This document shows, one piece after another, positions 14,255-61,292 of a stretch of DNA of 64,000 nt. The DNA comes from Vicinamibacteria bacterium (GTDB taxonomy: Bacteria > Acidobacteriota > Vicinamibacteria > Marinacidobacterales > Marinacidobacteraceae): NCBI GenBank assembly GCA_963422395.1, contig OY729431.1:2488887-2552886 (forward strand), in the 5' to 3' direction. The notes under the pieces were generated by a model. That model had not been told where the DNA came from and ran no database searches. It worked only from the letters and a program-made list of their open reading frames with translations. Within the stretch, counting starts at the first letter, position 1. Each line of letters starts with the position of its first letter. The position numbers and the translations under genes were made by a program.

Positions 14255-14300
14255 AGAATTCTAGCAGCCTGTGGAAAAAGAGGCGCGAACCCCGAGATCG
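14255..14300. repeat. Solo terminal-repeat remnant of the CTAGCAGCCTGTGGA IS/MITE family.
   Basis: ctagcagcctgtggaaaaagaggcgcgaaccccgagatcgg matches the MITE/IS terminal sequence ctagcagtctgtggatgaagtggcgcgagccccaaggtcgg at about 34 of 41 positions. No partner end was found nearby. Confidence 0.4.
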
Positions 14301-14424
14301 GACCCGTTCTCCCGATGGGAGCCGCCGCGCGGTACCCGGCGGTTTTCCGGGGCGGCCGCTGCCAGCGAGACCGCTCCCACGAGCCGCTTCCGGAGGCGAA
14401 GCGGCGTGCTTCTACCGCGGACCG

Positions 14425-15372
14425 CTACGGGGCGTAATCCACGATGTGGTCGAGCGGGTTCTGCGCCCGCTCGTTCAACCAGACCTCGTAGTGGAGGTGC
14501 GGCGCGCGGCTCCGGCCGGTGTTCCCGACGAGCCCCACCAGCTGTCCCCGGCGGAGGCGCTGATTACGGCGGACATGGACCTGCGACAGGTGTGCGTAGC
14601 GGGTCACGGTGCCGAACCCGTGGGAAACCACCACGAACTTTCCGTAGGTCGCGGAAGCCGAGGTCTCGATGACCAAGCCATCTGCGGTGACCCGCACCGG
14701 AGTTCCGGTATTCGCCGAGATATCCACTCCGTAGTGCCATTCCAGATCGCCGGTGAACGGATCGTTGCGGCGCCCGAACCCCGAGGACAGGTACCCGCGA
14801 ACCGGCCAGATGGACGGAGTTCCCGCCAGCAACCGGCTTTTTTCCCGCATCATCCGTTCGAGGGCGGTTCCCTGCTGGTCCAGCGATGCGATCCGGCCCG
14901 ACAGGTCGTCGATCCGTTCACTCACATAGTCGTATCCCGCAGCGGTCCCCGAGCCGCCGACACCGCCGATCGGATTGGGAATCGGTTCGGCGCCGGCGAG
15001 CACCGCGAGCTTTCGCATCTGCGCCTCGAGCGATTCGAGCCGACCCGCCATCCGCTCGGTGTCCTGTGCATACCCGCGGTTCAGCCGGCGGAGCAGGTTC
15101 CGCTCCTCGGTCAGCGCCCGGGACGCTGGACTCTGGCGGACGAGGAGCCACCCGTAGTGGACGGCTCCGCCGAGTACCGCGACAGCAGCGAGGCGCAGCG
15201 CCCATCGCTTCCAGCCGGCGACCTGGATCTCGCGGGGGGTGTGCGTTCCCGCCCGGAAAACGATGAACCGGGTGGGACCGCCGCCGGTACGGAGAGGCAG
15301 CAGACGCCGGAAGAACTCCCGTACCCGATAAGACTTTCCTCGGAACATGGACTTCGGCAGGATTTGTAACAA
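14425..15372 (-). CDS. M23 family metallopeptidase, a membrane-anchored murein endopeptidase (EnvC/NlpD-like).
   Basis: An N-terminal TM segment is followed by a coiled-coil, then an M23 domain with HYGVD...HLHYEV motifs. An alternative start is MFRGK at 15348. Confidence 0.8.
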   Translation of the reverse strand: MLQILPKSMFRGKSYRVREFFRRLLPLRTGGGPTRFIVFRAGTHTPREIQVAGWKRWALRLAAVAVLGGAVHYGWLLVRQSPASRALTEERNLLRRLNRGYAQDTERMAGRLESLEAQMRKLAVLAGAEPIPNPIGGVGGSGTAAGYDYVSERIDDLSGRIASLDQQGTALERMMREKSRLLAGTPSIWPVRGYLSSGFGRRNDPFTGDLEWHYGVDISANTGTPVRVTADGLVIETSASATYGKFVVVSHGFGTVTRYAHLSQVHVRRNQRLRRGQLVGLVGNTGRSRAPHLHYEVWLNERAQNPLDHIVDYAP

Positions 15373-15506
15373 ATCGACCCTGGCAATTCAAGTTTCGGAC
15401 AGGGCAGCTGCCTTCATCCTCCGGGGCAGCGCTCCCTCGAAACTGCGCCCGAGGGTCGGTGACGACAGCGAAAAAAGGTCACCCGCGGCGCGACCCGAGG
15501 GGAAGT

Positions 15507-17183
15507 TCACTCCCGCCTGTCCGGGGAAGGAGGGGCGGGAGTGCCGAAAGCCTCCGGAGACGGGACATCGGCAGCGGCTCGGAACTGCAGCGCCTCCTCG
15601 AAGTGCGCCGGCTGGAGGACCGTATCGCCGGCGAGATCGGCGATCGTGCGGGCCACTCGGAACGCGCGGGTCACGCCGCGCGCGGACAGGCCGAGGCCGT
15701 CCATCGCCCAGGAAACCAGCGAGCGAAAGGGGCCCGCGCCACAGGCGCGCTTGACTTCCGCGACCGTGGTCCACGGATGCGCCTTCGCCGCCCGAAATCG
15801 CTCGTCGCGGGCATGGCGGGCGCGCCGCACCCGCTCCCGGACCACGGCGCTCGACTCGCCCGGGCCGCCGCTGAGCACATCGCGCGAACGCACCGGGCGC
15901 ACTGTCAGGTGCATGTCCATCCGGTCGAGGAGCGGGCCGGAAATGCGCCCTCGATACCGGGCCACCGCCGCCGGGGTACACCGGCACGGCCGACCGCCAT
16001 CGCCGTGAAAACCGCAGGGGCACGGATTCATGGCCGCCACCAGCTGGAAGGAAGCAGGAAAACGCAACGAATGCCGAACCCGTCCCACCTGGATGTCTCC
16101 GCTTTCGAGCGGTTGCCGCAGGCATTCGAGCACCGGGCGCTGGAACTCGGGGAGTTCGTCGAGGAACAGCACGCCGTGGTGGGCGAAGGTGATCTCGCCC
16201 GGGCTCGGACCCGGCCCGCCGCCGGCCATCGCCGCATACGAGATCGTGTGATGGGGAGCCCGGAACGGCGGACGGTTGCGAATCCGCGGCGATACCTCGC
16301 CGACCGCCGAGCGGATGCGCGCCACATCCATCGCCTGGCAGGGGGTCAACTCCGGCAACAGATCGGGCAGGATGCCGACCAGCAGGGTTTTCCCGCTCCC
16401 CGGGGGACCGATGAAGAGCAGGTTGTGCCGGCCCGCAGCGGCGATTTCGAGCGCCCGCCGGGCGCGCGGCTGCCCCTGCACTTCCGCGAGGTCCACTCCG
16501 GACCGAGGCTCCGGCGGCTGCCGCCGCGGCACATGCGCCGGAGGAAGCGTTTCGGCGGCGAGCAAATCCATCGCAGCGCCGAGACTTTCCGCCGGATAGA
16601 CCCGGAGCCCCGAGGCCAGCGCCGCCTCATCCGCATTTCCAGGAGGCAGGATCGCCATGCTCATCCCCGCAGCGGCAGCCTCCCAGGCGATCGGCAGCGC
16701 GCCGCGCACCGGTCGGAGAGCGCCGTCGAGCGCCACTTCACCGAGCAGCACCGTCTCGGACAGCCGGCGGCGCGGAACCATCCCCTTCGCGACCAGGATC
16801 CCGACCGCCACTGCCAGGTCGAACCCCGCACCCTCCTTGCGCACTCCGGCGGGAGCCAGATTCACGACGATGTGCGCATTTCCGGGATCGAATCCTCCGT
16901 TACGCAGAGCGGTCCGCACCCGCTGCTGCGCTTCCCGGACCACCGGATCGGGAAGGCCCACCATGTGGAAGCTCGGCTTGTCGGCGGGCTGCAGGTCCAC
17001 TTCCACCCGAACCAGCAGACCATCCACCCCGCGAACGGTCCCGGTGCGGGTGACCGCGAGGAGGCGGCCCTCGGCGGCGGTTCGCGGCGGCCGGGGCCCG
17101 CCGCCGGGGCCGGGGGAGCCGTCCGGCGAGGAGGCCGGAGGCGGTATCTCGCCCGAGTCGGGGTGCGAAGAATCGAAGCGCAT
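15507..17183 (-). CDS. comM: YifB/ComM family Mg-chelatase-like AAA+ ATPase.
   Basis: LLVRVEVD...MVGLPDPVVREAQQRV matches the ComM N-terminal Lon-like domain. Walker A FIGPPGSGKT and the C-terminal Mg-chelatase region are present. Starting at ATG 17183 leaves a Pro-rich N-terminal extension. The upstream part of the 659-aa track ORF is probably not coding. Confidence 0.85.
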   Translation of the reverse strand: MRFDSSHPDSGEIPPPASSPDGSPGPGGGPRPPRTAAEGRLLAVTRTGTVRGVDGLLVRVEVDLQPADKPSFHMVGLPDPVVREAQQRVRTALRNGGFDPGNAHIVVNLAPAGVRKEGAGFDLAVAVGILVAKGMVPRRRLSETVLLGEVALDGALRPVRGALPIAWEAAAAGMSMAILPPGNADEAALASGLRVYPAESLGAAMDLLAAETLPPAHVPRRQPPEPRSGVDLAEVQGQPRARRALEIAAAGRHNLLFIGPPGSGKTLLVGILPDLLPELTPCQAMDVARIRSAVGEVSPRIRNRPPFRAPHHTISYAAMAGGGPGPSPGEITFAHHGVLFLDELPEFQRPVLECLRQPLESGDIQVGRVRHSLRFPASFQLVAAMNPCPCGFHGDGGRPCRCTPAAVARYRGRISGPLLDRMDMHLTVRPVRSRDVLSGGPGESSAVVRERVRRARHARDERFRAAKAHPWTTVAEVKRACGAGPFRSLVSWAMDGLGLSARGVTRAFRVARTIADLAGDTVLQPAHFEEALQFRAAADVPSPEAFGTPAPPSPDRRE

Positions 17184-19260: not shown

Positions 19261-19296
19261 TGCGGCGCAGCGGGAGAAAGTGTGAAAGGGGGCCTA

Positions 19297-20160
19297 GCAG
19301 CCCGTGGAAAAACTACCCTAATCGGTGAGGATCAGCGGCCCCGGAGGGGGTGCCGTGATCGGCGCAGTACGGCGTGCGGGCGCGGTCTGCGCGGGAAAAC
19401 CGCCCGACAGGGCGCTATCCAGGCCCAGGCGGGCGGTTCCCGGCTCCGGTAGGCGAAAATGAGAGCGAAAAGCGCGCCGCCGAACGCCGCCGCGCGCCCC
19501 TGCAGTCGTCGCGGCTTGCCGATTCCGCACCGGTGGCGCATCAGCAGCCCGAGGTCGAAGCCCGCTGCCTGGATCAACAGCCGCTTCCCGATGTTCCCCC
19601 GTCCGCGCAAATACAGCCGCCGCATCCCCCCGGTCTCGTAACCGTGCGCAAACGAGCGCTCCACCAACTCGCCCCGCCGGCGCAGCAGGCGCTTCCCGTG
19701 CTCACCACGAACGCGCCGCCGATTCGCAACCACCGCCCGGCGCTCCTCCTCCTTCCCCCGCCAGCTCCAAAGGCCTCGCTTCGGCTCCGATACATACGAA
19801 CGCACCCCCTCCCGCCGCAGACGCAACCGCGTCGCGTTGCTGTGATACTCCTTGTCGCACACCAGCTCTCGCGGACCAGCCGGTTCCCCGACCGCCGACG
19901 CCAGCGCCCCGCTCTCCCGGTCCAACCGCATCGAATCCGGACTCTTCCAGAATCCGGTTCAGCCGCTCGTAGAACGGATCCCCCGCGCTTCGAGGAAGAC
20001 TCGCCGTCGAAGTCCAGGATGTCCGGCGCTGCTCAACCCGACGCAATCCCATAGCCATACACACATACGGCCAAACTGACCCCGCTCGGTCGAGAGCTCC
20101 TGGTTCGCCGGGCGCCTCCCCGATCTTGGGGCTCGCGCCACTTCATCCACAGGCTGCCAG
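19297..20160. mobile_element. Internally deleted IS element (IS5/IS1182-superfamily-like) with terminal inverted repeats CTAGCAGCCCGTGGAAAAA / CTGGCAGCCTGTGGATGAA.
   Basis: The inverted termini lie at 19297 and 20160. Only the C-terminal half of a transposase remains. The right end is about 85% identical to the MITE at 23334..23530, and the left end is about 90% identical to the fragment at 25452..25659. Confidence 0.6.
19332..19931 (-). pseudogene. Transposase C-terminal fragment (DDE transposase, IS5/IS1182-like).
   Basis: ...GKRLLRRRGELVERSFAHGYETGGMRRLYLRGRGNIGKRLLIQAAGFDLGLLMR is the conserved C-terminal region of IS5-superfamily transposases. The N-terminal catalytic half is missing. 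Confidence 0.6.
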
Positions 20161-21561
20161 GAGGCCGGCAGCGAGGAAGGCCGCGGCGGCGGCGAATCCT
20201 CCCAGCAGCGCGTAAGGCAGCTGGGTATTCACATGGTCCACCAGGTCGGAGCCCGAGGCCATCGAAGCGATGATCGTGGTATCGGAGATGGGCGAACAGT
20301 GGTCACCGAAGATGCCGCCGGAGAGCACCGCGCCGGTGACCAGCGAAATGTCGAGCCCGAGTGTCGAAACCGCCGGGATCGCCAGCGGCAGCATGATAGC
20401 GAAGGTGCCCCAGGAGGTCCCCGTCGAGAAGGCCGTCGCCGCGCTCACCGCGAAGAGGACCGCCGGCAGGAGCCAGGCGGGCATCGCCGCTCCCGCGAGT
20501 TCCGCGAGATAGACCCCGGCGCCGAGGTCCCGCGCCACCCCGGAGATCGCGAAGGCGAGCAGCAGCACCGTGACCACCGGCACCATTCCGGAAGCTCCCT
20601 GCACCACCAGGTCCACGCTCTCGGAAAGCCGCAGCACCCGCTGGAAGAGCCCGAGCAGGGCGGCGGCCGCGACGGCGGCGAGAACCGCCCAGAGCACGGA
20701 AACGCCCCCGTCCCCGGCGAGCAGGTCCCCTTCCCCGGTGATCCAGAGCCCGAGGAAGATCATCGCGAGCAGGATCGCCAGCGGAACGACCAGGTTTCGC
20801 GCCCGATGGGGAACGCCAGGTCCGGGGGGCAGTGCGAGCACTTCGGTGGAAACCAGCGGGCGGGCGCCTTTCCGGAGGACCTGGCCGGTCTCCCGCGCCC
20901 GCCGCTGGGCGCGCGCCATCGGGCCGAAGTCCCGCCCCGAGAGGCCGAAGACGAAGGCCAGCGCGAGCGCGGCGAGTGCGTAGAAATTGAACGGGATGCT
21001 GCTCACCAGCACTGAAACGCCGCGTTCGACTCCGAGCGTCCCCAGGACGCCGATCACGAGCGCTCCCCAGCCGTTCATCGGGATCAGGATGCAAACCGGC
21101 GCCGAGGTGGAGTCGGTGAGATAGGCCAGCTTCTCCCGCGAGAGGCGGAAGCGGTCGAACAGGGGCCGCGACACCGTGCCGCTGACCAGGCAGGTGATGC
21201 TCGATTCGACGAAGATGCCCAGTCCGAGCAGCAGGGCGAGCGCCTGGGCGCCCCGCGGCCCGCTGACCAGCCGGCGCGAGGTGACCCAATGGACGAAGCC
21301 GGTGATCCCGCCGGTGCGTCCGACGAGCGCCAGCACTGCACCGACCAGGGTGCTGAAAAGCAGGATGGACGGATTTTCGGAAAATGCGGTGGTGATCCGG
21401 GTCACGGTGGCGGCCAGCGCCGAGAAGGGATTCCCGCCAACGAGGAGCAGCTCGCCGAACACCACCCCGGCCAGCAGCGCCAGCACCGCCTGCCTCGTTG
21501 TCAGGGCGACGAGAATCGCGAGGATCGGGGGAAGGATGCTGAGGAAGCCGAGGTCGTCCAC
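20143..21561 (-). CDS. Na+/H+ antiporter NhaC-family membrane transporter.
   Basis: 472 aa, polytopic, with NhaC-like repeated hairpin regions. Its last six codons (LLAACG*) lie inside the IS terminal repeat. Confidence 0.8.
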   Translation of the reverse strand: MDDLGFLSILPPILAILVALTTRQAVLALLAGVVFGELLLVGGNPFSALAATVTRITTAFSENPSILLFSTLVGAVLALVGRTGGITGFVHWVTSRRLVSGPRGAQALALLLGLGIFVESSITCLVSGTVSRPLFDRFRLSREKLAYLTDSTSAPVCILIPMNGWGALVIGVLGTLGVERGVSVLVSSIPFNFYALAALALAFVFGLSGRDFGPMARAQRRARETGQVLRKGARPLVSTEVLALPPGPGVPHRARNLVVPLAILLAMIFLGLWITGEGDLLAGDGGVSVLWAVLAAVAAAALLGLFQRVLRLSESVDLVVQGASGMVPVVTVLLLAFAISGVARDLGAGVYLAELAGAAMPAWLLPAVLFAVSAATAFSTGTSWGTFAIMLPLAIPAVSTLGLDISLVTGAVLSGGIFGDHCSPISDTTIIASMASGSDLVDHVNTQLPYALLGGFAAAAAFLAAGLLAACG

Positions 21562-21808
21562 GAGTGGGGAACTCCTTTTCGAGTCTGGTTGGCGGAGTCA
21601 GCCTCTCGTTCGGGTACGGCTGAGAGAGGAATCCGCGCTACGGCCCGCACCGAGCGGCCGAGCGTCGGCGGGCCGCCTGCCCACCTTCACGGAGGCGGGG
21701 CGTTGTCCGCGGGCGGCAATCGTTGCATGGCGGCGACGGTACACTCTCCCGCGGATCGGAACCGCCTCCTTCGGGCGGCGCTTCCGGACGATTCGGCGAC
21801 GGAGATCC

Positions 21809-23302
21809 TTGGAAGAACGAAACAAGACGCTACGGCCGGGGAGGGACCGGGGGGCTTCCGACACCGAGCCTGTCCGGCGGTCCGATCGGCAGGCAGGTAG
21901 GCAGCCCGCCGGTGAAGCGAGATCGCCGGAGTCGCGCCGGGACTCGAAACGGCAGGCGAGCCGGGAACGCGCCGGAGGACGAGGACCACACCCCACCGGA
22001 CCGTCTCCGGCTGAGATCGACGGGGTACGCATCGTTCGGGATGCGGCCGGGCTCGAGACGCTCATCGGCGAGGTGCGTGCTCAGGGGGAGTTCGCCCTCG
22101 ACACCGAGTTCATCCCGGAGAATCGCCTCTTCCCTGAACTCGGGCTGGTCCAGATCGCTTCGCCAGGGGTGGAAGCGGTCGTGGACCCACTCGAAATCGA
22201 GGATCTGGGTCCGCTCTTCGCGCTGGTCGCAGATCCCGCGATCCAGAAAGTCGTCCATTCGGGCAAGCACGACTTCGACATCTTCTACGCGCTGGCTTCG
22301 GTCGTGCCGCAGAATGTCTTCGACACCCAGATCGCCGCCGCGGTGATCGGCCACGGCAAGAAGGTGCAGGTTGCGCTCCGGACGCTGGTCGCGGGTTTCG
22401 TGGGCCGCGAGCTCTCGAAACAGGAGCAGATGTCCAACTGGCTGCGGCGTCCGCTGACGCCCCGCCAAGTGGAGTACGCGATCGCCGATGTCCGCTATCT
22501 CCTGCCGCTTCGGGCCAAGCTCATCGCGCGGGCGACCGCGCTCGGCCGACAGGACTGGTTGGACGAGGAGATGAAGCCGCTGACTATCGAGTCCGCTTAC
22601 CAGCTGCCGCCGGTCGAGGAGTGTTACCGCGCCCTCGACGCGCCCGGCCTCACGCCCTCGCAGCGCGGTTCGCTCCGAGAACTGGCCGCTTGGAGAGAAC
22701 GGCGCGCCCGGGCTTCCAACCGACCCCGCGGTTGGATCCTCAAGGACGGAGCGGTCCGCGACCTGGCGCGCCGCCAGCCACGGAACCGGGAACAGCTGTT
22801 GGCACCCTACGAATCCACCGGCGGCCGGCCGCCGAAGGGAGACCCGAGAACCGTCCAGCAGACGCGCGGGGCTCTGCAAAAGAACGCCGAAAAGGTACTC
22901 CGCCTGCTCGAAGCCGGCGCTTCTTGCCCGATTCCCTTCACCGGAACCGGGAAACAGGAGCGCCGCTCCGCTCCCGAGTCGCTGGCCCTGTTGCTGGAGA
23001 CCTGGCTCAAGCTGCGCGCCGCCGAGCACGGAGTCGCCCCCGAACTGCTGGCCACCCAGGAGGAGTTGCGCGCCATCGCTGCCGCCTGGCCGGAAGAGCC
23101 TCCCAGTGCGCGGCCGCTCACCGGATACCGCCGCCGTGTCCTGGGCAACGACTTGCTCCTCATTCTCTCCGGACAGGCGGTCATCCAGGTGGGCGCCAAG
23201 GGGAAACAGCCCGGCGAGCGGCCTCCGATCCGGCTCGCGCGTCTCGGCCGCCTCGGCCGGTTCGTCCTCCGGGACTACGGCAAAGGGAATGGGCCCCGAT
23301 GA
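21809..23302 (+). CDS. rnd: Ribonuclease D (3'-5' exonuclease with HRDC domains).
   Basis: The DEDDy exonuclease motifs FALDTEF, HSGKHDFDIF and YAIADVRYLL are present, with HRDC-like C-terminal repeats. There is no canonical start near the domain. The TTG at 21809 is preceded by GGAG and is proposed, leaving a low-complexity N-terminus. Confidence 0.75.
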   Translation: MEERNKTLRPGRDRGASDTEPVRRSDRQAGRQPAGEARSPESRRDSKRQASRERAGGRGPHPTGPSPAEIDGVRIVRDAAGLETLIGEVRAQGEFALDTEFIPENRLFPELGLVQIASPGVEAVVDPLEIEDLGPLFALVADPAIQKVVHSGKHDFDIFYALASVVPQNVFDTQIAAAVIGHGKKVQVALRTLVAGFVGRELSKQEQMSNWLRRPLTPRQVEYAIADVRYLLPLRAKLIARATALGRQDWLDEEMKPLTIESAYQLPPVEECYRALDAPGLTPSQRGSLRELAAWRERRARASNRPRGWILKDGAVRDLARRQPRNREQLLAPYESTGGRPPKGDPRTVQQTRGALQKNAEKVLRLLEAGASCPIPFTGTGKQERRSAPESLALLLETWLKLRAAEHGVAPELLATQEELRAIAAAWPEEPPSARPLTGYRRRVLGNDLLLILSGQAVIQVGAKGKQPGERPPIRLARLGRLGRFVLRDYGKGNGPR

Positions 23303-23333
23303 ACGAGCTGTCCCCGATCCTCGCACCGGCCCT

Positions 23334-23530
23334 AGCAGCCTGTGGACGAAGTCACACGGCCAAAGGTCGGCGATGCCCAGTCCTCCCGGTGGGGGCCCCG
23401 GCTGAACCGCTTCGCTCGGCGCTGCGATTCCGTCGGAATACACCCGGTATGCCTCCCGAATCGCGCCTTGTCCGCCGGGCGCCTCCCCGACCTTGGGGCT
23501 CGCGCCACTTCATCCACAGACTGCTAGTCC
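23334..23530. mobile_element. MITE (~197 bp) with 21-bp terminal inverted repeats CTAGCAGCCTGTGGACGAAGT / CTAGCAGTCTGTGGATGAAGT.
   Basis: Near-perfect terminal inverted repeats and no coding capacity. The internal sequence matches the right end of the IS remnant at 20090..20160. It sits 31 nt after the rnd stop and 59 nt before the DAACS transporter start. Confidence 0.6.
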
Positions 23531-23588
23531 ATGCTCTCGCCGCTGTCGACCGCAGAACGGCGAAGCCTCTTCCCGCTCCGCTTTCATC

Positions 23589-24893
23589 ATGAAGAACACT
23601 CCCTGGTACCGCAAGCTGTGGGTGCAGATCCTCGCGGGTCTCGCCCTGGGCGTCGTGTACGGCGCCTTCGCCGCCGCCGCCGGCTGGACGGAGTTCACCG
23701 AGGACTTCATCGCGCCGTTCGGGGTGGTTTTCTTCAACGGCCTGCAGCTGATCGCGGTGCCGCTCGTTCTCGCCTCGCTCATCATCGGGGTGTCCTCGCT
23801 CAGCGACATGCGCAAGGTGAGCCGGATCGGCGGAAAGACGATCGCCATCTATGTGGCGACCACCGCGATCTCGGTCACCATCGGCCTCGCCTACGCCAAT
23901 CTGCTGCGGCCCGGCGACCAGGTGCCGGAAGCGCTCCAGCAGGAACTCTCCGAACAGTACCGGGAGGCCGCGGAGGGGCGGGAGGGCCAGGCGGCCCGCC
24001 TGATGGAAGAGCGCGGTCCGCTCAGCTTCCTACTCGACATCGTGCCCTCGAACGCGGTGTCTTCGGCCTCGAACAACCGGAACATGCTCCAGGTTGTGTT
24101 CCTGGCGCTGCTGTTCGGCATCGCGCTGCTCCGGATCCCGCAGGAGAAGGCAGCGCCGCTGATCGGCTTCTTCAAGGGACTCGAAGCGGTCGTCGTCGAA
24201 TTCGTCGGAATCGTGATGCGGATGGCGCCGCTCGGAGTGTTCGCGCTCATCGCCCGCGCCATCACCGGGATGGCCGGAGACGACCCGCAGCAGGTCGCGC
24301 AACTGCTCGGCGCGCTCGGGTTCTACTGCTTCGTGGTGATCGCCGGACTCGCGACCCAGATGCTGGTCGTCTATCCGCTGATCCTGAAGCTCTTCACTCC
24401 GATCCGTTGGCGGCGCTTCTTCCCCGCGGCCGGCCAGGTGCAGCTGGTCGCGTTCTCGACGAGTTCCAGCGGCGCCACTCTCCCGGTGACGATGGATCGC
24501 GCCCAGCGCGATCTGGGAGTGTCCGAGGAGGTTTCGTCGTTCGTCCTTCCGCTCGGAGCCACGATCAACATGGACGGCACCGCGCTCTACCAGGCGGCGG
24601 CGGCGATCTTCATCGCGCAGTCTCTCGGAATGTCCATCGGTCTCGAGGGGCAGCTGGCCATCGTGCTCACCGCGGTGCTCGTCTCGATCGGGACGGCGGC
24701 GGTCCCGGGCGCGGGGATCATCATGCTGGTCATCATCCTGCAGGCCATCGGAGTGCCCACCGAGGGGGTGGCGCTCATCCTCGGAGTGGACCGCATCCTC
24801 GACATGATGCGGACCGCTACGAATGTCACCGGTGACCTGACGGTCGCTTCGGTGGTCGCCGCCTCGGAAAACCAGCTCTCGATCCGGAAGTGA
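23589..24893 (+). CDS. Dicarboxylate/amino acid:cation symporter (DAACS family, GltP/GltT-like).
   Basis: MKNTPWYRKLWVQILAGLALGVVYG. Conserved DAACS hairpin motifs are present. Confidence 0.9.
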   Translation: MKNTPWYRKLWVQILAGLALGVVYGAFAAAAGWTEFTEDFIAPFGVVFFNGLQLIAVPLVLASLIIGVSSLSDMRKVSRIGGKTIAIYVATTAISVTIGLAYANLLRPGDQVPEALQQELSEQYREAAEGREGQAARLMEERGPLSFLLDIVPSNAVSSASNNRNMLQVVFLALLFGIALLRIPQEKAAPLIGFFKGLEAVVVEFVGIVMRMAPLGVFALIARAITGMAGDDPQQVAQLLGALGFYCFVVIAGLATQMLVVYPLILKLFTPIRWRRFFPAAGQVQLVAFSTSSSGATLPVTMDRAQRDLGVSEEVSSFVLPLGATINMDGTALYQAAAAIFIAQSLGMSIGLEGQLAIVLTAVLVSIGTAAVPGAGIIMLVIILQAIGVPTEGVALILGVDRILDMMRTATNVTGDLTVASVVAASENQLSIRK

Positions 24894-24976
24894 GAAGCGG
24901 GAGGGTGGTTTGACCGCTATCGCTCTTCATCTCTCTCGAAGGGCCCCTCTGTCTGGTATAGCCTTGCCCGAGTCGC

Positions 24977-25451
24977 ATGTCCGCTACCAACTTCAACACC
25001 CGCAACGACACTTGGCGCAAACTGATGGCGAACGGCTTGAGTTACCGGGTGCCGAGGTTCCATAAGGGACTACAACTGGGGCCCGGAAGAGTGGGAGGAT
25101 CTCTGGCAGGACATCCTCGCCACCGTCGCACCGGGAGGCGAACCGGCTCATTACTTGGGCTACCTGGTTCTGCGCACCGACGACGAGAAACGCTTCGACG
25201 TCATTGACGGTCAGCAGCGCCTGACCACTCTCAGCATCCTGGTGCTGGCCGGGCTGCGCAGGCTCCGAGACACGATCGAAGCAGAGGAATCAGTCGAGGA
25301 GACGAAAAAGCGCCTCGATGGATTGCGCGGAGCGCACATCGGTTATATGGATCCGGTAACTCTGGTATCGGAAGCGAAACTGAAGCTGAATCGAAACAAC
25401 GACCACTACTTCCAGACCTACCTGATACCTCTGGTTAAACCTTTGCCCCCG
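24977..25451 (+). pseudogene. DUF262 (GmrSD-like, DGQQR ParB-like nuclease N-terminal domain) gene remnant, frameshifted and 3'-truncated.
   Basis: MSATNFNTRNDTWRKLMANGLSYRVPRF, then a 1-nt frameshift near 25061..25066, then DYNWGPEEWEDLWQDILATVAPGGEPAHYLGYLVLRTDDEKRFDVIDGQQRLTTLSILVLAG. These are the DUF262 hallmarks. The ORF ends abruptly where the IS-end fragment begins at about 25452, with the expected downstream domain absent. Confidence 0.6.
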
Positions 25452-25659
25452 CGATGACTGCAGGGGCGCGCGGCGGCGGTCGGCGCCGCGCTTTTCGCCT
25501 ACCGGAGCCGGGAAACGCCCGCCTGGGCCTGGATAGCGCCCTGTCGGGCGGTTTTCCCGCGCAGACCGCGCCCGCACGCCGTACTGCGCCGATCACGGCA
25601 CCCCCTCCGGGGCCGCTGATCCTCACCGATTACAGCAGTTTTTCCACAGGCTGCTAACC
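25452..25659. mobile_element. Truncated IS-end fragment, inverted relative to 19297..19505.
   Basis: About 90% identical to the left ~205 bp of the IS remnant, including the terminus ...cacaggctgctaa at 25659. The homology stops at about 25452. Confidence 0.55.
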
Positions 25660-25687
25660 TGAGGCGGACGTACACTCCGCCCTCGCC

Positions 25688-26563: not shown

Positions 26564-26591
26564 CCGCTCGGGCGCGCCGCGCTCTTTTCCA

Positions 26592-27029
26592 TCACTCGCT
26601 ACCAGACCCTTTCGAGCGCGCAGCACGACCGACCCCGACTCCGACCCCGAGGGGGACGGAAGTCCAGAGTCCTAGTGCCAGAGGGAGACGAAGTCCCTCG
26701 ATCGGAAGGAGGAACGGGCCGTTCAGACGCCCGGTGAGGATCGCCGTGATCAGCCAGGCGCCGGCTCCGAATGTGATTCCGAGCCCGCCACCGAGAACGA
26801 GCCAGTCTCGAAACCTCGACTCGAAGAGAGTCCCCAGCCGAGTTCCGATGTGCACCCAAACCGGGAAGCCGAGCAGTATCCCGAAGGAAACGCCGAAACC
26901 CATCCGCAGCACATCCCACACGGACTCACGCTCTACGGCGACTCCCCACAGAACGAGCCCGATGAAGAAGCCCAACGCCAGGCTCACCCCTGGCCTCACG
27001 ACACTTGGCGCTACTTCGGTTACCGCCAT
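26592..27029 (-). CDS. Hypothetical 4-TM membrane protein, translationally coupled to the upstream Cys-rich protein gene.
   Basis: The start MAVTEV... overlaps the upstream stop (TGATG). It has four hydrophobic helices and Gly-rich turns. Local GC is low. Confidence 0.45.
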   Translation of the reverse strand: MAVTEVAPSVVRPGVSLALGFFIGLVLWGVAVERESVWDVLRMGFGVSFGILLGFPVWVHIGTRLGTLFESRFRDWLVLGGGLGITFGAGAWLITAILTGRLNGPFLLPIEGLRLPLALGLWTSVPLGVGVGVGRAARSKGSGSE

Positions 27030-27322
27030 CAGATCCAACAGGTAGAAAGGCAGTTGCTGAATCGATTCAGACATGCGTTCACTTCTTCGAGGTGTCTGTC
27101 GTAGCACTGTTCCAAGCAATTTTTCGCACCCCAGAACCCGCATTGGCGTGCACATGTCTCAAGGTCATCTTCCGCTGTCCGAAGGCAGTCGGAAAGATTA
27201 CCGCTGCACTCGGCCACACAGTCCTGCGGATTGGGTTGGGCACGACCGACAGCTGGAATTATGAGAAGAAGAAGAAGTCCGACATATGTGAGGGAGAATA
27301 GAAAAATTCGAAAAGTCTTCAT
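27029..27322 (-). CDS. Small secreted cysteine-rich protein (10 Cys, four CX3C motifs).
   Basis: An AGGAGA SD lies 8 nt before the ATG (MKTFRIF...). The signal peptide is MKTFRIFLFSLTYVGLLLLLIIPAVGRAQ. The mature ~69 aa contain CVAEC, CARQC, CLEQC and CLSTC plus two more Cys. Confidence 0.5.
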   Translation of the reverse strand: MKTFRIFLFSLTYVGLLLLLIIPAVGRAQPNPQDCVAECSGNLSDCLRTAEDDLETCARQCGFWGAKNCLEQCYDRHLEEVNACLNRFSNCLSTCWI

Positions 27323-27377
27323 GAGAGTTCTCCTGTTAGGCAGTTTCCGATGATCCATTTGGAAACAGCGGGAATCA

Positions 27378-27786
27378 CTATTCAGTCGAGAGCCGCTGCG
27401 ACAGCATCTCGAATCGTTTCACCTTCGCCTCCGTGAGGCTGGCAAGACGCGCCATCAGCTCAGCCAAATCCTCTTCTTGCATTCCACGCGTGCGAAGCAT
27501 CGACTCGATTTCGCGGAATCTGGTTTCATAGAGGGCTCTGAGGTCGATCTCGGCACTCCTTCTGCTCGGGACGAGGGGAGGACCTGGTCCATCGAAGGCA
27601 ACTGACGCTTCCGTAACCAGCGGCGCGTACGTCCGGGCAGTGGCCTCCGCCTGGCTCTGATCGACAGTCGCAATGGTTGGTGCCACGACCGAAGGGGTCG
27701 AGGTGTTTCCGGTACTGTCGCAACCGGAACCGACCGACAGCGCCGCGAAGATCGCAACGAGAAGGACGAGGGGGTTCTTTCGGAAC
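27378..27786 (-). CDS. Hypothetical lipoprotein with a C-terminal helical domain.
   Basis: Signal and lipobox MFRKNPLVLLVAIFAALSVGSGC. A Ser/Thr/Pro-rich linker is followed by a helical C-terminus. It is the first gene of the low-GC three-gene cassette. Confidence 0.5.
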
Positions 27787-28065
27787 ATGACGAGGGTCTC
27801 CTCTATGGAAAGTGTCAAGCCTTTGCTGATAGTTCGAGAAACCGGCCGAGTCGAGGACAACGGTTGCGAAGAATCACCCATCCTCGTGCGTCCTCGGTTG
27901 GGTCTCTACGAGTACCAACTGGTTTAGCGTGCCCCAATCCAATTTTCAACAGCAGATCCCCCGAAAATATCCTTCAGGCTCGGGATGGACCGGATCGCCG
28001 TATGGATTTGACTTTCGGTCTGGTTGTCGCAAGACTGCAGGTGAGGACCTCGAAGAAGGACGCGA

Positions 28066-29187
28066 GTGGCGGTTTCGGATCTCGAAGATCGGGGTTGCTG
28101 GTTCCGTGGCGCTGCCGGTGAGAATGCGGTCGAAGACGAAGACGAACGGCTCCCCGGAGAGACCGAGGGGCTGCCGGAATCGGGCGACATCATCCCGGAG
28201 CCGCCGGTCCCGGTAGGCGGGGCGGATGACCTGGGCATCGTGGGCCTCTATCTCCGGGACACCCGCCGGTGTGGTCGGCTTACCGGGAAAGATGAACAGC
28301 GGTGCGCCCGCTCCATGCGGAGGAACGCGCGAGGAAATCGAAAAGCCGAGCAGTCGGCCGCAGAGGCGGCCGCGTTCCATGCCAGCCGCCACCGGATGAT
28401 CGAGGGGAGCCTCGGACTCGTCGTTGCGATCGCAAGGGAATACGAACACCTGGGTCTGCCGCTTGAAGACCTCATCCAGGAAGGCAACCTCGGGCTGATC
28501 GCGGCAGTGGACAAGTTCGACCCCGAGCGGAACCTGAGGCTTTCGACCTACGCCGTGACCTGGATCCGAGAAGCGATCTGCCGGGCGCTCTCCCAGAAGT
28601 CCCGGACGATCCGGATTCCGCTCGACAAACTGGCGATTCGCCGCCGAGCGGCTAAAGTGCATGACGAGATAGAACAGCGGTACGGGAACGAGGCGTGCTG
28701 CGGTGGCTCTCGCCGGGCGCATACCCTGGAGGACGACGCCGGGGAACTCGGAGTGGATGCCGAAGTGCTGCGAACGACGATCCGGCTGGTGCCCGACATC
28801 GATCCGCTGGAGGACCGGCCGAGCGGCAGGCCATCCCTCTTGGCGTCGCTGCCAGACCCCCAGTCGCCGAATCCGGCGGACCGGGCTGCGGCTGCGGAGC
28901 AGCAGCAGCGAGTCAGGGACGCGGTTTCCGAACTCCCGCCCCGCCTGCAGTGGATCGTGCGGCGGCGCTATGGGCTTTCCGGCGGAGAAGAAGCCGGCTT
29001 GGCGAAGGTCGGACGCGAAGTGCGACTCTCCGCCGAGCGGGTTCGCCAGTTGCAGCGCCGAGCGCTGCGCCTGCTTCGTGGGATCCACGCTTCTTCTGCC
29101 GCGCGCACGGAACCGATCCGAGGTCGGCCCTCTCGAACCGCTTTGGCCCCTTTCGCCGGAGCGCCGCCCTTCAGATCGCCCGGATGA
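28066..29187 (+). CDS. Sigma-70 family RNA polymerase sigma factor (regions 1.2, 2, 3, 4).
   Basis: Region 2 reads LVVAIAREYEHLGLPLEDLIQEGNLGLIAAVDKFDPERNLRLSTYAVTWIREAI. A region 4 HTH near the C-terminus reads RRRYGL...RVRQLQRRALRLL. The N-terminus is acidic. Confidence 0.8.
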   Translation: MAVSDLEDRGCWFRGAAGENAVEDEDERLPGETEGLPESGDIIPEPPVPVGGADDLGIVGLYLRDTRRCGRLTGKDEQRCARSMRRNARGNRKAEQSAAEAAAFHASRHRMIEGSLGLVVAIAREYEHLGLPLEDLIQEGNLGLIAAVDKFDPERNLRLSTYAVTWIREAICRALSQKSRTIRIPLDKLAIRRRAAKVHDEIEQRYGNEACCGGSRRAHTLEDDAGELGVDAEVLRTTIRLVPDIDPLEDRPSGRPSLLASLPDPQSPNPADRAAAAEQQQRVRDAVSELPPRLQWIVRRRYGLSGGEEAGLAKVGREVRLSAERVRQLQRRALRLLRGIHASSAARTEPIRGRPSRTALAPFAGAPPFRSPG

Positions 29188-38146: not shown

Positions 38147-38447
38147 GTCAGGGTCTCCTCAGGATCTCCGGGAAGCGCACCGACCAGCGAGCACCGCGAA
38201 CCGGAGAGGCCCCGGACGCTATCCGCTCGCGAGCCGAGCCGTCAATGGCCACTCGGGGGCTGCGCCGGGGGAGCTTCGGACAGGCGGTCGCAGGGGAGCG
38301 GACCGAGGCCCCACGGAAAGCTGCTCTTCCCGCCTATAGAAGAGGATGTTGCGCTTGCTTCGCAGGGGCTCGATGGGTGTCCCCGCATGGATGACGATTT
38401 TTGTCCAGGTGATCGAGTATCCTGTCTTGCTTCAGACCCTCTCTGCG

Positions 38448-40700: not shown

Positions 40701-40948
40701 ACCGGCAGGGATCCGTTCCAACGCAGCGAGGTGGAGTTGCGGCTTCCCCGGAGACCTCCTGGAATTCGGGTTCCTCACCATGCGAACGAAAAGAGCCATC
40801 CTTCCCAGCCATGACGGGGGCCACCCGCTCCCAACGAGTCGCAGCACGGGGACTGAAACGGATGGCGAGTACCGATGAGGACTGTCGTCCCCGGCTCGCC
40901 CGGGGACTCGGATCGACGGAGAGTACAGAAGTTCGGGGGAGGAAGACG

Positions 40949-41150
40949 ATGCCCGACTCCACTCATGAATGGCCGGAAAGTCCTTCGGACTCTGGAGCGC
41001 CAAGGATTCGAATGCGTGCGCCGGCGGGGAAGCCACCGCATCCTTCGAACCTCTGCCAGAGGCAGCGAACGGGTGACAGTCGCCGGGAAATAAGGCGACG
41101 AGCTACGGAAGGGAACCCCGGTGGCGGTCTCCTTCGACCTGCTACCACCA
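40949..41150 (+). pseudogene. hicA-like mRNA-interferase toxin remnant, with an in-frame stop and a probable frameshift.
   Basis: MNGRKVLRTLERQGFECVRRRGSHRILRTSARGSERVTVAGK*GDELRKGTPVAVSFDLL aligns with the HicA family pattern (LeklGfelvrqkGSH...vtvP.H.gkdl..GTlrsIlkqagL). A TAA interrupts it at 41091..41093. A strong SD (GGGGGAGGAAG) serves an ATG at 40949 that is out of frame with the HicA frame at 40965. Confidence 0.4.
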
Positions 41151-41244
41151 AGAGAGCTTTCCACTGCCGCCGCCTCGACTGCAGCGTACCGGGAACGACC
41201 CCGGAGCGGCTGATGCGGGGCGGACTTCTCGCCGGGGCGGCCTG

Positions 41245-41916
41245 ATGTCGTACGGAGCAAGACTCCATGTGTGGGGCGATTACGCATGTTTCACTCGCCC
41301 CGAGATGAAGGCCGAGCGCGTCTCCTACGACGTCATGACACCGTCGGCAGCGCGTGGAATTCTGGAAGCGATCCATTGGAAGCCGGCGATCCGGTGGATC
41401 GTGGATCGGATCCAGGTGTTGAAACGGATCCGGTTCGAAACGATTCGAAGAAACGAACTCGGAAGCAAGATTCCGGCAGGAAACATCAGCGTCGCGATGC
41501 AGCGCGGCGACACCGGAGGTCTCGCCGTCTCGATCGAAAGCGACCGGCAGCAGCGCGCCGCCACCGTACTGCGCGATGTCGCTTATCTCATCGAAGCGCA
41601 CTTCATCCTCACACCCGTTGCAAACCCAGACGATACTCCGGCGAAACACGCCGCGATGTTCCACCGGCGCGCCGCTCGAGGGCAGTGCTTCCACCGACCG
41701 TATCTGGGGACCCGCGAGTTCCCGGCCCACTTCGCCCCGGTCCCGGATCCGCCGCCATCATCCTCCCTACCGACCGATCAGTGTGATCGTGATCTAGGCT
41801 GGATGCTGCACGACCTCGACTACGCGAATGCCGCGTCGCCCAGATTCTTCCGCGCAACGCTCCGGAATGGCGTGGTGCATGTCCCGCCGCTTGATTCAGA
41901 GGAGGTCAAGGGATGA
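41245..41916 (+). CDS. cas5c: Cas5c (Cas5d), type I-C.
   Basis: MSYGARLHVWGDYACFTRPEMKAERVSYDVMTPSAARGILEAIHWKP is the canonical Cas5d N-terminus. The stop overlaps the cas8c start (ATGA). Confidence 0.95.
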   Translation: MSYGARLHVWGDYACFTRPEMKAERVSYDVMTPSAARGILEAIHWKPAIRWIVDRIQVLKRIRFETIRRNELGSKIPAGNISVAMQRGDTGGLAVSIESDRQQRAATVLRDVAYLIEAHFILTPVANPDDTPAKHAAMFHRRAARGQCFHRPYLGTREFPAHFAPVPDPPPSSSLPTDQCDRDLGWMLHDLDYANAASPRFFRATLRNGVVHVPPLDSEEVKG

Positions 41917-45273: not shown

Positions 45274-45281
45274 GCACCACA

Positions 45282-46322: not shown

Positions 46323-46330
46323 TACAAATC

Positions 46331-52660: not shown

Positions 52661-52788
52661 CGACAGACCCCTCGGCAGCCCGTGGAGGAAGCGGCGCGAC
52701 CCCCGAGACGGATGCCGCTCGCATACCCGGCACGGCCGTGCGGCTTCGTCCAGGGACTGTTCACCGGCCCCGCGCGCGGGCGGAAGGC

Positions 52789-61088: not shown

Positions 61089-61292
61089 CAGTCCGTGGAT
61101 GAAATGGCGCGCGCCCTCGTCCACGGACTGCCAGTTTCGAAATTCCGAGGATCGTTTCGAGAAGATGTCTGCAGACTATCCCGGCACGGCCGTCACGATC
61201 GAGGTCAATACCTCGGACACAGCTCGCTATGTCGTCGCACGGGAGGGGCCGGTCCCGGATGATTTGCCACGGAGAAGGGCGTGATCCGATCC

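What the first reader, a model, noticed from the sequence alone, without database searches (positions are those of the whole stretch)
19297..20160. IS/MITE family with CTAGCAGCCTGTGGA termini present in four forms within 12 kb
Copy 1 (19297..20160) is an ~865-bp element with inverted termini that retains only the C-terminal part of an IS5/IS1182-like DDE transposase, so it is an internal-deletion derivative. Copy 2 (23334..23530) is a ~197-bp MITE with 21-bp near-perfect terminal inverted repeats and no ORF. Copy 3 (25452..25659) is a one-ended ~205-bp fragment in inverse orientation. Copy 4 (14255..14300) is a solo terminal repeat. Together they indicate past activity of an element whose autonomous copy is not in this window. 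This marks 14-26 kb as a recombinationally plastic neighbourhood next to the CRISPR-Cas locus.
Basis: seen in the sequence. Interest (0 to 1): 0.55.

Follow-up and report, generated by a model that had tools for sequence, protein, structure and literature searches.

The report
IS remnants, MITEs and an inversion
The repeats are decayed copies and miniature derivatives of an IS5/IS1182-type insertion sequence, and two of them sit exactly at the ends of a 5.3-kb block of chromosome that is flipped relative to related bacteria: a well-documented but textbook kind of rearrangement, not a new system.

Summary
In detail: the terminus occurs 6 times in the window at up to 2 mismatches, against 0.09 expected. 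The IS/MITE reading is right, with five corrections.

1. "CTAG" is not part of the terminus. It is the 4-bp target-site duplication. The true ends are CAGCCYGTGG...CCACRGGCTG, as shown by left/right flank covariation in 67 full-length relatives.
2. In many relatives the transposase ORF runs through the right end and takes its stop codon (TAG/TAA) from the duplicated target. The same holds for this genome's longer copy (P0121) and for copy 3.
3. Copy 1 keeps the first ~47 codons as well as the C-terminal part. It carries a deletion of ~193 codons.
4. Two more palindromic mini-derivatives lie at 52676-52759 and 61089-61130. Related genomes are dense with the same MITE family, so the family is not confined to 14-26 kb.
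5. Copies 1 and 3 are the two breakpoints of a 5.3-kb inversion of nhaC-rnd-symporter. Four related lineages all have the other orientation.

The 188-bp MITE is a lineage-specific insertion with a perfect CTAG duplication. The solo end upstream of secA is ancient and sits at the same position in relatives. The CRISPR-Cas locus starts about 13 kb away and shows no link. Verdict: an ordinary member of a known kind of element.

The parts
14261..14305 (+). CTAG flank at 14261-14264, then the terminus CAGCCTGTGGA and about 40 nt resembling the transposase-upstream (5') end of the IS. It lies 29 nt upstream of the secA start (secA is on the minus strand).
   Evidence: nhmmer E = 3.9e-9. No end-to-end fold. 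Relatives L097/L099 have a MITE end at the same position, and the more distant L102 has an empty CTAG there.
19294..20160 (-). Copy 1: a decayed internal-deletion derivative of the IS, 19298-20156, with flanking 4-mers CTAG (19294-97) and CCAG (20157-60). The transposase reads on the minus strand. Codons 3-47 lie at 20061-19927 and the C-terminal ~227 codons at 19925-19326. About 193 codons are deleted, including DUF772 and the first catalytic Asp region, and there are two frameshifts. This is the left breakpoint of the inversion.
20143..21561 (-). nhaC-type Na+/H+ antiporter gene. Its last 4 codons and its stop codon (AACG*) are read from the IS terminus. Its presumed original end (CC TGA) now lies at 25658-25662, next to copy 3.
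   Evidence: The CC TGA assignment is an inference from alignment with L097/L100.
20157..25448 (.). The 5.3-kb block that is inverted relative to all related genomes examined: nhaC, rnd (RNase D), the MITE, an SDF-family symporter and a DUF262 pseudogene remnant.
   Evidence: blastn orientation switches at 19.2/20.2 kb and at 24.9/25.7 kb. Gene orders in L097-L102. Polarity from RNase D identities.
23332..23527 (.). 188-bp MITE (23336-23523) with a perfect CTAG/CTAG target duplication. Both ends are of the 5' type, and 21-bp inverted repeats differ at 2 positions. It sits between the rnd stop (23302) and the symporter start (ATG at 23589).
   Evidence: It folds end to end (z = -2.9). Relatives lack it and have TTAG/GTAG at the aligned position.
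24894..25448 (+). Remnant of a DUF262/GmrSD_N-type gene. Its N-terminal motif is degraded and its C-terminus is cut at the junction with the IS fragment. It is absent from relatives.
   Evidence: PF03235, E = 1.7e-9, profile positions 43-106 of 199.
25449..25657 (+). Copy 3: the 3'-terminal 205 nt of the IS (25449-25653), covering transposase residues ~318-390 and ending ...FSTGC, plus the flank CTAA (25654-57), which supplies the stop codon TAA. It is inverted relative to copy 1 and forms the right breakpoint of the inversion. Its inner boundary is a deletion junction.
52676..52759 (.). 84-bp palindromic mini-derivative with two 5'-type ends. Flanks are TCGG/TTCA, so no recognisable duplication. 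It is intergenic, 15 nt upstream of a minus-strand lipoprotein-like ORF.
   Evidence: E = 8.4e-8. End-to-end hairpin of -44.3 kcal/mol, z = -3.35.
61089..61130 (.). 42-bp element made of two inverted termini back to back. Flanks are GTAG/CCAG. It starts directly after the TAG stop codon of the gene at 59919-61088.
   Evidence: E = 2.5e-8. Hairpin of -29.3 kcal/mol, z = -6.95.

Best explanation
The repeats are remnants and non-autonomous derivatives of one DDE insertion sequence of the IS5/IS1182 superfamily.

- The intact element would be roughly 1.4-1.5 kb, with a single ORF of about 450-480 aa.
- Its ends are CAGCCYGTGGA...TCCACRGGCTG.
- It inserts at CTAG (less often CTAA or TTAG) and duplicates those 4 bp.
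- In this lineage, and in many relatives, the transposase ORF stays open through the right end and is closed by the TAG/TAA of the duplicated target.

The ends alone, mostly as two 5'-type ends facing each other, have spread as MITEs of 42-190 bp. These are mobilised in trans and persist in intergenic DNA.

In this genome two copies came to lie in inverted orientation. One was at the variable spot downstream of the symporter gene. The other was in the last codons of nhaC, just upstream of phhA. The 5.3-kb block between them was then inverted. I think homologous recombination between the two copies is the most likely cause. A one-step duplicative inversion by intramolecular transposition is the close alternative.

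The copies then decayed. Copy 1 lost 193 codons at an ATGCG microhomology and acquired frameshifts. Copy 3 lost its 5' ~1.2 kb together with part of a neighbouring DUF262 gene.

Shown: family identity, ends, target duplication, stop codon supplied by the target, the extra copies, the inversion and its polarity, the empty site for the MITE. Inferred: the order of events, the recombination mechanism, mobilisation in trans.
For: Family identity:
- Transposase homology.
- A longer copy (P0121, 390 aa, ending ...LSTGC) is on the same contig.
- The closest full-length relatives are 475-477 aa and 65-70% identical by BLASTP (69-76% in the alignment).

Ends and duplication:
- 67 elements have both ends. 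Their 4-nt flanks are identical in 50, against 28.7 expected and a maximum of 39 in 10,000 permutations.
- There are 13 identical pairs that are not CTAG, against 1.8 expected.
- L082 and the pLB1 element each have CTAA/CTAA.

Stop codon from the target:
- About 30 of 70 relatives have a 460-494-aa ORF ending ...TG|C TAG.
- Copy 3 reads ...FSTGC-TAA.

Structure of copy 1.

MITE: perfect CTAG/CTAG flanks, an empty site in relatives, and multiple related copies in every relative's locus.

Inversion:
- blastn orientation pattern.
- Gene order phhA(-) nhaC(-) rnd(+) SDF(+) in L097/L098/L099, L100, L101 and L102.
- RNase D identities place the window as sister to L097+L100, with L101 and L102 as outgroups.
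- The breakpoints coincide with the two inverted IS copies.
- nhaC has lost its own stop codon, and a CC-TGA in the right register sits beside copy 3.
Against: - The source genome could not be reached, so there is no genome-wide copy count and no proof that an intact copy exists.
- P0121 and copy 1 share a 27-28-aa deletion between the beta-strand region and the DKGYHS motif. All relatives lack this deletion, so the lineage may be dead.
- The two 4-mers that should be one target duplication at the nhaC/phhA site are CTGG and CTAA. They match at only 2 of 4 positions.
- The 84-bp and 42-bp elements have no recognisable duplication.
- Neither NCBIfam family model reaches its cut-off.
- The two mechanisms of inversion cannot be told apart from these data.
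- An assembly error at the 209-bp inverted repeat is not formally excluded.
Confidence: 0.85

Rival explanations
1. Same elements, different mechanism for the inversion. A single IS copy attacked a CTAG-like site 5.3 kb away on the same chromosome in a replicative (cointegrate-type) reaction. In one step this produced the second, inverted copy and the inversion (a duplicative inversion).
For: Copies 1 and 3 share a 1-nt frameshift that P0121 lacks, so they are closely related sequences. They are 97% identical over 165 nt. From my own knowledge: IS903, an IS5-family member, can transpose replicatively and make adjacent deletions and inversions.
Against: Within the shared 215 nt, copy 3 agrees with P0121 at several positions where copy 1 differs (AAAVGAALFA against AAAFGGALFA; RETP against REPP), and there is also a 12-nt indel. 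The copies are therefore not obviously younger than other family members. The flanks predicted by this model are the same as for homologous recombination, because the target is palindromic, so nothing discriminates. No replicative pathway has been shown for this group.
Confidence: 0.33
2. The short repeats are a REP-like or structured-RNA family with its own function or its own mobilising enzyme, and only coincidentally resemble IS ends.
For: The 42-, 84- and 188-bp elements form strong end-to-end hairpins (z = -6.95, -3.35, -2.9). They are intergenic, dense in relatives, and one is held at the same position upstream of secA in several genomes.
Against: They share not only the 11-nt terminus but 28-65 nt of subterminal sequence with the transposase-proximal end of copy 1. 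The same terminus bounds transposase-carrying elements across phyla. The 188-bp copy has the family's 4-bp CTAG duplication and an empty site in relatives. No Rfam family matches. Similarity between the secA-upstream copies of the window and L097 is only about 68% by my count over 40 nt, which gives no sign of constraint.
Confidence: 0.04
3. Copies 1 and 3 are the arms of a composite transposon that imported nhaC-rnd-symporter as cargo.
For: Two inverted copies with the same (3') end facing outwards bracket 5.3 kb. The outer flanks CTAG and CTAA differ at one position.
Against: The same three genes lie between the same neighbours (TlpA-cytochrome c-ccdA on one side, phhA-SpoIIE on the other) in relatives, only in the opposite orientation. 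They are resident genes, not imports. GC content is unremarkable.
Confidence: 0.02
4. The inversion is an assembly artefact, or a population polymorphism, at the inverted repeat.
For: Inverted repeats of about 210 nt can mislead assemblers. I could not inspect reads.
Against: The source is a single 2.9-Mb contig, which suggests long reads. The nhaC ORF reads into the IS end, and both junctions are unique sequence. The repeat is short and only 91% identical.
Confidence: 0.05

Closest known systems
IS5 of Escherichia coli (IS5 family, IS5 group)
   Same: A DDE transposase preceded by a DUF772-type N-terminal domain. A 4-bp target duplication with consensus Py-T-A-Pu, in which CTAG is the commonest and CTAA and TTAG follow; even CTGG is recorded (PMC5493358). 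Here the left-flank counts are CTAG 43, CTAA 7 and TTAG 5 of 70. A plasmid relative is annotated 'IS5 family transposase' (pLB1).
   Different: The transposase here is about 460-494 aa, against about 330 aa for IS5 (my own knowledge), and carries a C-terminal DDE_Tnp_1_6 region. The termini start CAGCC, not GGAAGG (my own knowledge). The NCBIfam IS5 models score below cut-off (95 against 140 bits). The ORF runs through the right end.
IS1182 family
   Same: The best-scoring NCBIfam model is NF033551. The domain set DUF772 + DDE_Tnp_1 + DDE_Tnp_1_6 and the protein length fit.
   Different: The score is 162 bits against a cut-off of 270. I could not check the family's reference ends or duplication against ISfinder.
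IS870 (Agrobacterium vitis) and ISMt1 (Mycobacterium tuberculosis)
   Same: Both insert at 5'-CTAG-3', and the TAG of the target provides the stop codon of the large ORF (Fournier et al. 1993, as cited in PMC13630536).
   Different: No sequence comparison was made here. From my own knowledge, IS870 belongs to a different family (IS630-like, TA duplication). Here 4 bp are duplicated, and non-TAG targets give read-through or an earlier TGA.
IS-derived MITEs of bacteria (for example Correia elements, or the MITEs of Pseudomonas syringae, PMC3189936)
   Same: Short, non-coding, with terminal inverted repeats identical to those of a resident IS. They carry the same target duplication, are intergenic, occur in many copies and form hairpins.
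   Different: Most copies here pair two 5'-type ends rather than one 5' and one 3' end. The smallest is only 42 bp, with essentially no internal sequence between its two inverted arms.
IS-bounded chromosomal inversions (recombination between inverted IS copies; duplicative inversion)
   Same: Two inverted copies lie exactly at the breakpoints of a segment that is inverted relative to relatives.
   Different: Nothing unusual. The segment is small (5.3 kb), and both copies have since decayed, which now fixes the orientation.

Membership tests
IS5/IS1182 superfamily of DDE insertion sequences | Transposase with a DUF772 N-terminal domain and a DDE_Tnp_1-type catalytic domain | tested here: met
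   P0121: PF05598, E = 6e-16. Relatives P0123-P0242: PF05598 + PF01609 with or without PF13751. The ORF of copy 1 on its own gives only a weak PF13751 hit (E = 0.0014).
IS1182 family (NCBIfam NF033551) | Score at or above the curated cut-off of 270 bits | tested here: not met
   P0123 scores 161.9 bits, P0125 163.3 bits and P0121 115.9 bits. It is the best-scoring model but is below cut-off.
IS5 family (NCBIfam NF033581/78/79/80) | Score at or above the curated cut-off (140 bits for NF033581) | tested here: not met
   P0123 scores 95.1 bits and P0125 89.1 bits.
IS5 family, IS5 group | 4-bp target duplication at Py-T-A-Pu, mostly CTAG | tested here: met
   50 of 67 relatives have identical 4-nt flanks. 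CTAG is far the commonest, then CTAA and TTAG. No permutation in 10,000 reached the observed count. The window MITE has CTAG/CTAG. Reference behaviour of IS5: PMC5493358.
Insertion sequence (any family) | Terminal inverted repeats bounding the transposase gene | tested here: met
   CAGCCYGTGG / CCACRGGCTG bound elements of 1445-1527 bp in 66 loci. They also bound copy 1.
Insertion sequence (any family) | An intact, autonomous copy in this genome | not testable with these tools
   The source genome is absent from the searchable collections. The only other ORF found from that contig is P0121, which lacks ~69 N-terminal residues and 27-28 internal residues relative to its relatives.
MITE | Short, no coding capacity, inverted termini shared with an IS, target duplication of the parent IS | tested here: met
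   23336-23523: 188 bp, 21-bp inverted repeats with 2 mismatches, CTAG/CTAG flanks, 65 nt 91% identical to the IS end. Only mechanical ORFs of 61 aa.
MITE | Presence/absence polymorphism (an empty site) | tested here: met
   The rnd-symporter spacer of L097/L099/L100 aligns across the insertion point without the element. For the secA-upstream copy, L102 has an unoccupied CTAG.
MITE | Multiple copies in the genome | tested here: inconclusive
   Four short derivatives lie in this 64-kb window, and 4-6 copies or fragments lie in each ~21-kb locus of relatives. The whole source genome could not be scanned.
REP/RAYT system | Association with a Y1 (IS200/IS605-like) RAYT transposase; REP palindromes of 20-40 nt | not tested
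   No dedicated search for a Y1 transposase was run. The repeats share up to 65 nt with the end of a DDE element.

The most novel reading that the evidence does not exclude
This could be a distinct, still unnamed group between IS5 and IS1182, widespread in Acidobacteriota, Latescibacterota, Gemmatimonadota-like and related uncultured lineages. Its transposase gene would have no stop codon of its own, so that the protein's C-terminus depends on the target: CTAG/CTAA gives ...TGC-stop, and other targets give extensions. Its palindromic end-pairs (42-190 bp) would have become a REP-like, high-density intergenic repeat class in the source clade, and some would be retained at the same position across species (for example upstream of secA) because they now act as terminators or regulatory hairpins.
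Probability: 0.15. Interest if true: 0.45.

Novelty: new member of a known kind. Interest (0 to 1): 0.25.

Why it matters
For annotation, several things follow:
- Copy 1 should be called a pseudogene.
- nhaC has an IS-derived C-terminus.
- The 5.3-kb inversion explains the break in synteny.
- The CTAG next to each terminus should be treated as the target duplication when searching for further copies.

More generally, the fetched relatives give a clean definition of a common but poorly labelled IS group of uncultured soil and sediment bacteria. That definition covers its ends, its 4-bp CTAG-type duplication and its habit of taking the stop codon from the target. It could be used to name the group and to mask its MITEs. 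None of this changes current understanding of transposition.

Tried and rejected
- **Reaching the source genome.** Exact-protein look-ups for P0001, P0121 and SecA returned nothing. A 30-nt pattern for the 5' end found 0 matches in genome contigs, so the genome is not in that collection. No genome-wide copy count was therefore possible.
- **Metagenome scan** with CAGYCYGTGGANRAARNGGCGCG gave 13 hits. None has a CTAG-type flank or a partner end, so they are chance or coding matches.
- **Second protein search** with P0121 to find other ORFs from the 2.9-Mb contig found none among the best 120.
- **Rfam**: no family matches anywhere in the window.
- **A right end for copy 4**: none is convincing, and 14265-14363 does not fold end to end. 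I treat it as one-ended.
- **Composite transposon**: rejected by synteny.
- **CRISPR link**: 30 spacers were compared with the window and all fetched loci. Only 17-20-nt chance matches turned up.
- **Literature** on the ends and duplication of IS1182: searches gave nothing usable. One paper from a broader search turned out to be about CTAG methylation and was irrelevant.
- **Discriminating homologous recombination from duplicative inversion** using the flanking 4-mers: not possible. Both models predict the same flanks, and the nhaC/phhA pair (CTGG/CTAA) mismatches under either model.
Full report

Yes. CTAGCAGCCTGTGGA occurs six times in the window at up to 2 mismatches, against 0.09 expected; none of 100 shuffles reaches six.
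- Copy 1 (19294-20160) and copy 3 (25449-25657) are inverted. They match at 97% over 165 nt and 94% over a further 50 nt, offset by a 12-nt indel.
- The right 65 nt of the 196-bp element at 23332-23527 is 91% identical to the right end of copy 1.
- 14261-14301 matches that same end at 85%.

One is an 84-bp element at 52676-52759 and the other a 42-bp element at 61089-61130 (nhmmer E = 8e-8 and 2.5e-8). The core CAGYCYGTGGA is present exactly ten times in the window. At up to 1 mismatch there are 16 hits against 5.1 expected, and 0 of 100 shuffles reach 16.

**2. What the element is**

The 199-aa ORF of copy 1 (minus strand) has thousands of homologues carrying the DDE_Tnp_1 and DDE_Tnp_1_6 domains.

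Its 90%-identity cluster holds a second protein from the same 2.9-Mb contig. This is P0121, 390 aa, with a DUF772 domain and ending ...YSSLSTGC. A more complete copy therefore exists elsewhere in the genome.

Full-length relatives are 460-494 aa. The closest are P0123, P0124 and P0125, at 65-70% identity to P0121 by BLASTP and 69-76% in the alignment.

NCBIfam ranks the IS1182 model first (162 bits, cut-off 270) and an IS5 model second (95 bits, cut-off 140). Neither cut-off is reached. A relative on plasmid pLB1 is annotated 'IS5 family transposase'.

**3. True ends, target duplication and the stop codon**

I fetched 80 loci encoding relatives. They come from Acidobacteriota (Vicinamibacterales, Terriglobia), Latescibacterota, Longimicrobiales, Planctomycetes and others, and many genomes carry several copies. 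Comparing copies within genomes fixes the element at 1445-1527 bp, with ends CAGCCYGTGG...CCACRGGCTG.

The four bases outside these ends vary between insertions but agree between the left and right side of the same insertion:
- 50 of 67 pairs are identical, against 28.7 expected.
- 13 of these pairs are not CTAG (TTAG, CTAA, GTAG, CTAT, CCAA, CTAC, ATAG), against 1.8 expected.
- None of 10,000 permutations reaches either number.

Its preference for CTAG, then CTAA and TTAG, is the behaviour recorded for IS5 (PMC5493358).

CTAG is rare in this DNA: 23 sites in 64 kb against 194 expected from base composition. Four of those 23 flank these termini.

In about 30 of 70 relatives the long ORF stays open through the right end and reads ...ACN GGC TG|C TAG. 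The last base of the Cys codon and the whole stop codon therefore come from the duplicated target. With ATAG the ORF stops one codon earlier (TGA). With CCAA or CTAC it reads on into the flank.

P0121 ends ...STGC, and copy 3 reads ...FSTGC-TAA with the TAA in the CTAA flank. This genome's lineage therefore has the same arrangement. A stop codon supplied by a CTAG target is already documented for IS870 and ISMt1 (PMC13630536).

**4. Anatomy of the copies in the window**

*Copy 1 (19298-20156).* It aligns to residues 3-47 of P0123 at 20061-19927, and to residues 241-467 at 19925-19326 in another frame.
- It has lost about 193 codons, including DUF772 and the first catalytic Asp region.
- The junction lies at the short repeat ATGCG (GAT GCG / CAT GCG, read directly from the sequence). 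It would have been in frame but for an extra G.
- A second frameshift lies near the 3' end and is shared with copy 3.
- Copy 1 and P0121 share a 27-28-aa deletion just upstream of the DKGYHS motif that no relative has. The lineage in this genome may therefore be inactive.

*The 188-bp MITE (23336-23523).* It has a perfect CTAG/CTAG duplication, and its 21-bp inverted repeats differ at two positions. It lies between the rnd stop and the symporter start, ATG at 23589. When it is removed and one CTAG is left, the spacer aligns with that of relatives. These lack the element and have TTAG/GTAG at that point.

*The 84-bp and 42-bp elements.* They are end-to-end hairpins (z = -3.35 and -6.95). The MITE also pairs end to end (z = -2.9). 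They share 28-36 nt of subterminal sequence with the transposase-proximal end of the IS, not just the terminus.

*Copy 4.* It is one-ended. It lies 29 nt upstream of the secA start codon. L097 and L099 have a MITE end at the same position, followed by CTAA and the same AATT..GGTTTACCCGGC leader. L100 has a degenerate version, and the more distant L102 has a bare CTAG. This insertion therefore predates the split of these lineages.

*Relatives.* They are dense with the same MITE family, with 4-6 copies or fragments per ~21-kb locus.

**5. The inversion**

A search with RNase D (rnd) found relatives at 82% identity (L097/L098/L099, and L100), 74% (L101) and 68% (L102).

All of them have the order SpoIIE(+) phhA(-) nhaC(-) rnd(+) SDF-symporter(+). 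In L097-L100 and L102 this is followed by TlpA(-) cytochrome c(-) ccdA(-)...M23(+) secA(+).

In the window, the flanks secA...TlpA (11.7-19.2 kb) and phhA...SpoIIE (25.7-31 kb) align to the relatives in one orientation. The stretch 20.2-24.9 kb (nhaC, rnd, symporter) aligns in the other.

The two switches of orientation fall exactly at copy 1 and copy 3, which are inverted relative to each other. RNase D identities place the window as sister to L097+L100, with L101 and L102 outside. The window's arrangement is therefore the derived one.

Two details fit this:
- nhaC now ends in four codons and a stop read from the IS terminus (...GLL|AACG*).
- The sequence beside copy 3, CTAA-CC-TGA, supplies in the right register the Ala/Thr-stop with which nhaC ends in relatives (...LLS*...FLA*). 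This assignment is an inference.

*Mechanism.* I favour homologous recombination between two pre-existing inverted copies, at about 0.5. A one-step duplicative inversion comes next, at about 0.33. The flanks cannot separate the two, because the target is palindromic.

*Unexplained.* The two 4-mers that should be one duplication at the nhaC/phhA site are CTGG and CTAA.

*Later decay.* The inner part of copy 3 was lost in a deletion that also cut a DUF262/GmrSD_N-type gene. A remnant of that gene survives at 24894-25448 and is absent from relatives.

*Variable spot.* The position downstream of the symporter is variable in every relative. L099 has an IS630-like element there, L101 has toxin-antitoxin or defence-like genes, and L100 has a 1.2-kb gap with no called gene.

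**6. Rival explanations**

- *REP-like or RNA-element family unrelated to a transposase.* This is contradicted by the shared subterminal sequence, the family-typical duplication, the empty sites and the absence of any Rfam match.
- *Composite transposon carrying the three genes.* This is contradicted by synteny.
- *Assembly artefact.* I could not exclude this without reads, but it is unlikely for a 2.9-Mb contig with unique junctions.
- *Link to CRISPR-Cas.* No evidence was found. The type I-C cas genes start at 38346 and the array is at 46801-48849 with 30 spacers. No spacer matches the element.

**7. Comparison with known elements, and verdict**

In target choice and duplication the element works like IS5. 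In size and domain content its transposase resembles IS1182. It fails the curated sequence cut-offs of both families, so I place it in the IS5/IS1182 superfamily without a family name.

The stop codon supplied by the target, the IS-derived MITEs and the IS-bounded inversion are all known phenomena. The finding is therefore correct and ordinary. The additions are the correct ends, the extra copies, the age of the secA-upstream copy and the inversion.

Interest is 0.25, and I class it as a new member of a known kind.

*Main limitation.* The source genome itself could not be searched. Copy number and the existence of an active copy therefore remain unknown.

Noticed in passing
window 24894-25457: Remnant of a DUF262/GmrSD_N-type (type IV restriction-like) gene. 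It contains the DGQQRLTT motif, its N-terminal motif is degraded, and its C-terminus is cut at the junction with the IS fragment. It has no counterpart in the relatives' loci.
   Followed up: partly
window 26571-29177: A 2.6-kb stretch between phhA and the SpoIIE-type phosphatase gene has no match in relatives, where those two genes are about 280 nt apart with a MITE between them. GC dips to 0.55 at 27-28 kb. The stretch holds two ORFs without Pfam hits and a sigma-70-like ORF. It looks like a lineage-specific insert.
   Followed up: partly
whole window: CTAG is about 8-fold under-represented (23 sites against 194 expected from base composition). CTAA (6), TTAG (5) and TTAA (1) are also rare, whereas GATC is over-represented (535 against 194).
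   Followed up: partly
L099 13219-14359; L101 10680-15810; L100 12773-13970: The spot downstream of the SDF symporter gene, which is the left breakpoint site in the window, is variable in every relative. L099 has an IS630-like element (DDE_3 + HTH). L101 has MazE, an M78 peptidase, DUF4411 and a 1023-aa gene. L100 has 1.2 kb without a called gene.
   Followed up: no
window 15276-15568, compared with L097 17040-17468: All relatives with this region have a DUF309 gene between the comM-like (Mg-chelatase family) gene and the M23 peptidase gene. No blastn match to it exists in the window, and the comM-like ORF there is longer (659 aa against 525-562 aa).
   Followed up: no
window 38346-48849: A type I-C CRISPR-Cas locus (cas3, cas5d, csd1/cas8c, cas7 and others) with lower GC (0.58-0.63) than its surroundings (~0.69). 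The array is at 46801-48849 with 31 repeats and 30 spacers. No spacer matches the IS, the MITEs or any fetched locus.
   Followed up: partly
P0121 and copy 1 (window ~19870-19880), compared with relatives: This genome's IS lineage lacks 27-28 residues (the ...QPADxGDTxTLExTL... region) just upstream of the DKGYHS motif. Every relative examined has them. This may be an inactivating deletion that nevertheless occurs in at least two copies.
   Followed up: partly
L020 and L023 (Vicinamibacterales OZ244656.1, 4.15 Mb and 5.37 Mb): The left flank of one IS copy is the reverse complement of the right flank of another copy 1.2 Mb away. This suggests an IS-bounded large inversion, or a repeated flank, in that genome too.
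   Followed up: no
L005 2619-2760; L014 4223-4245; L052 4259-4358: In relatives, extra solo ends or short end-pairs of the same family lie directly beside full-length copies. MITE-like derivatives therefore accompany this IS group in other phyla as well.
   Followed up: no
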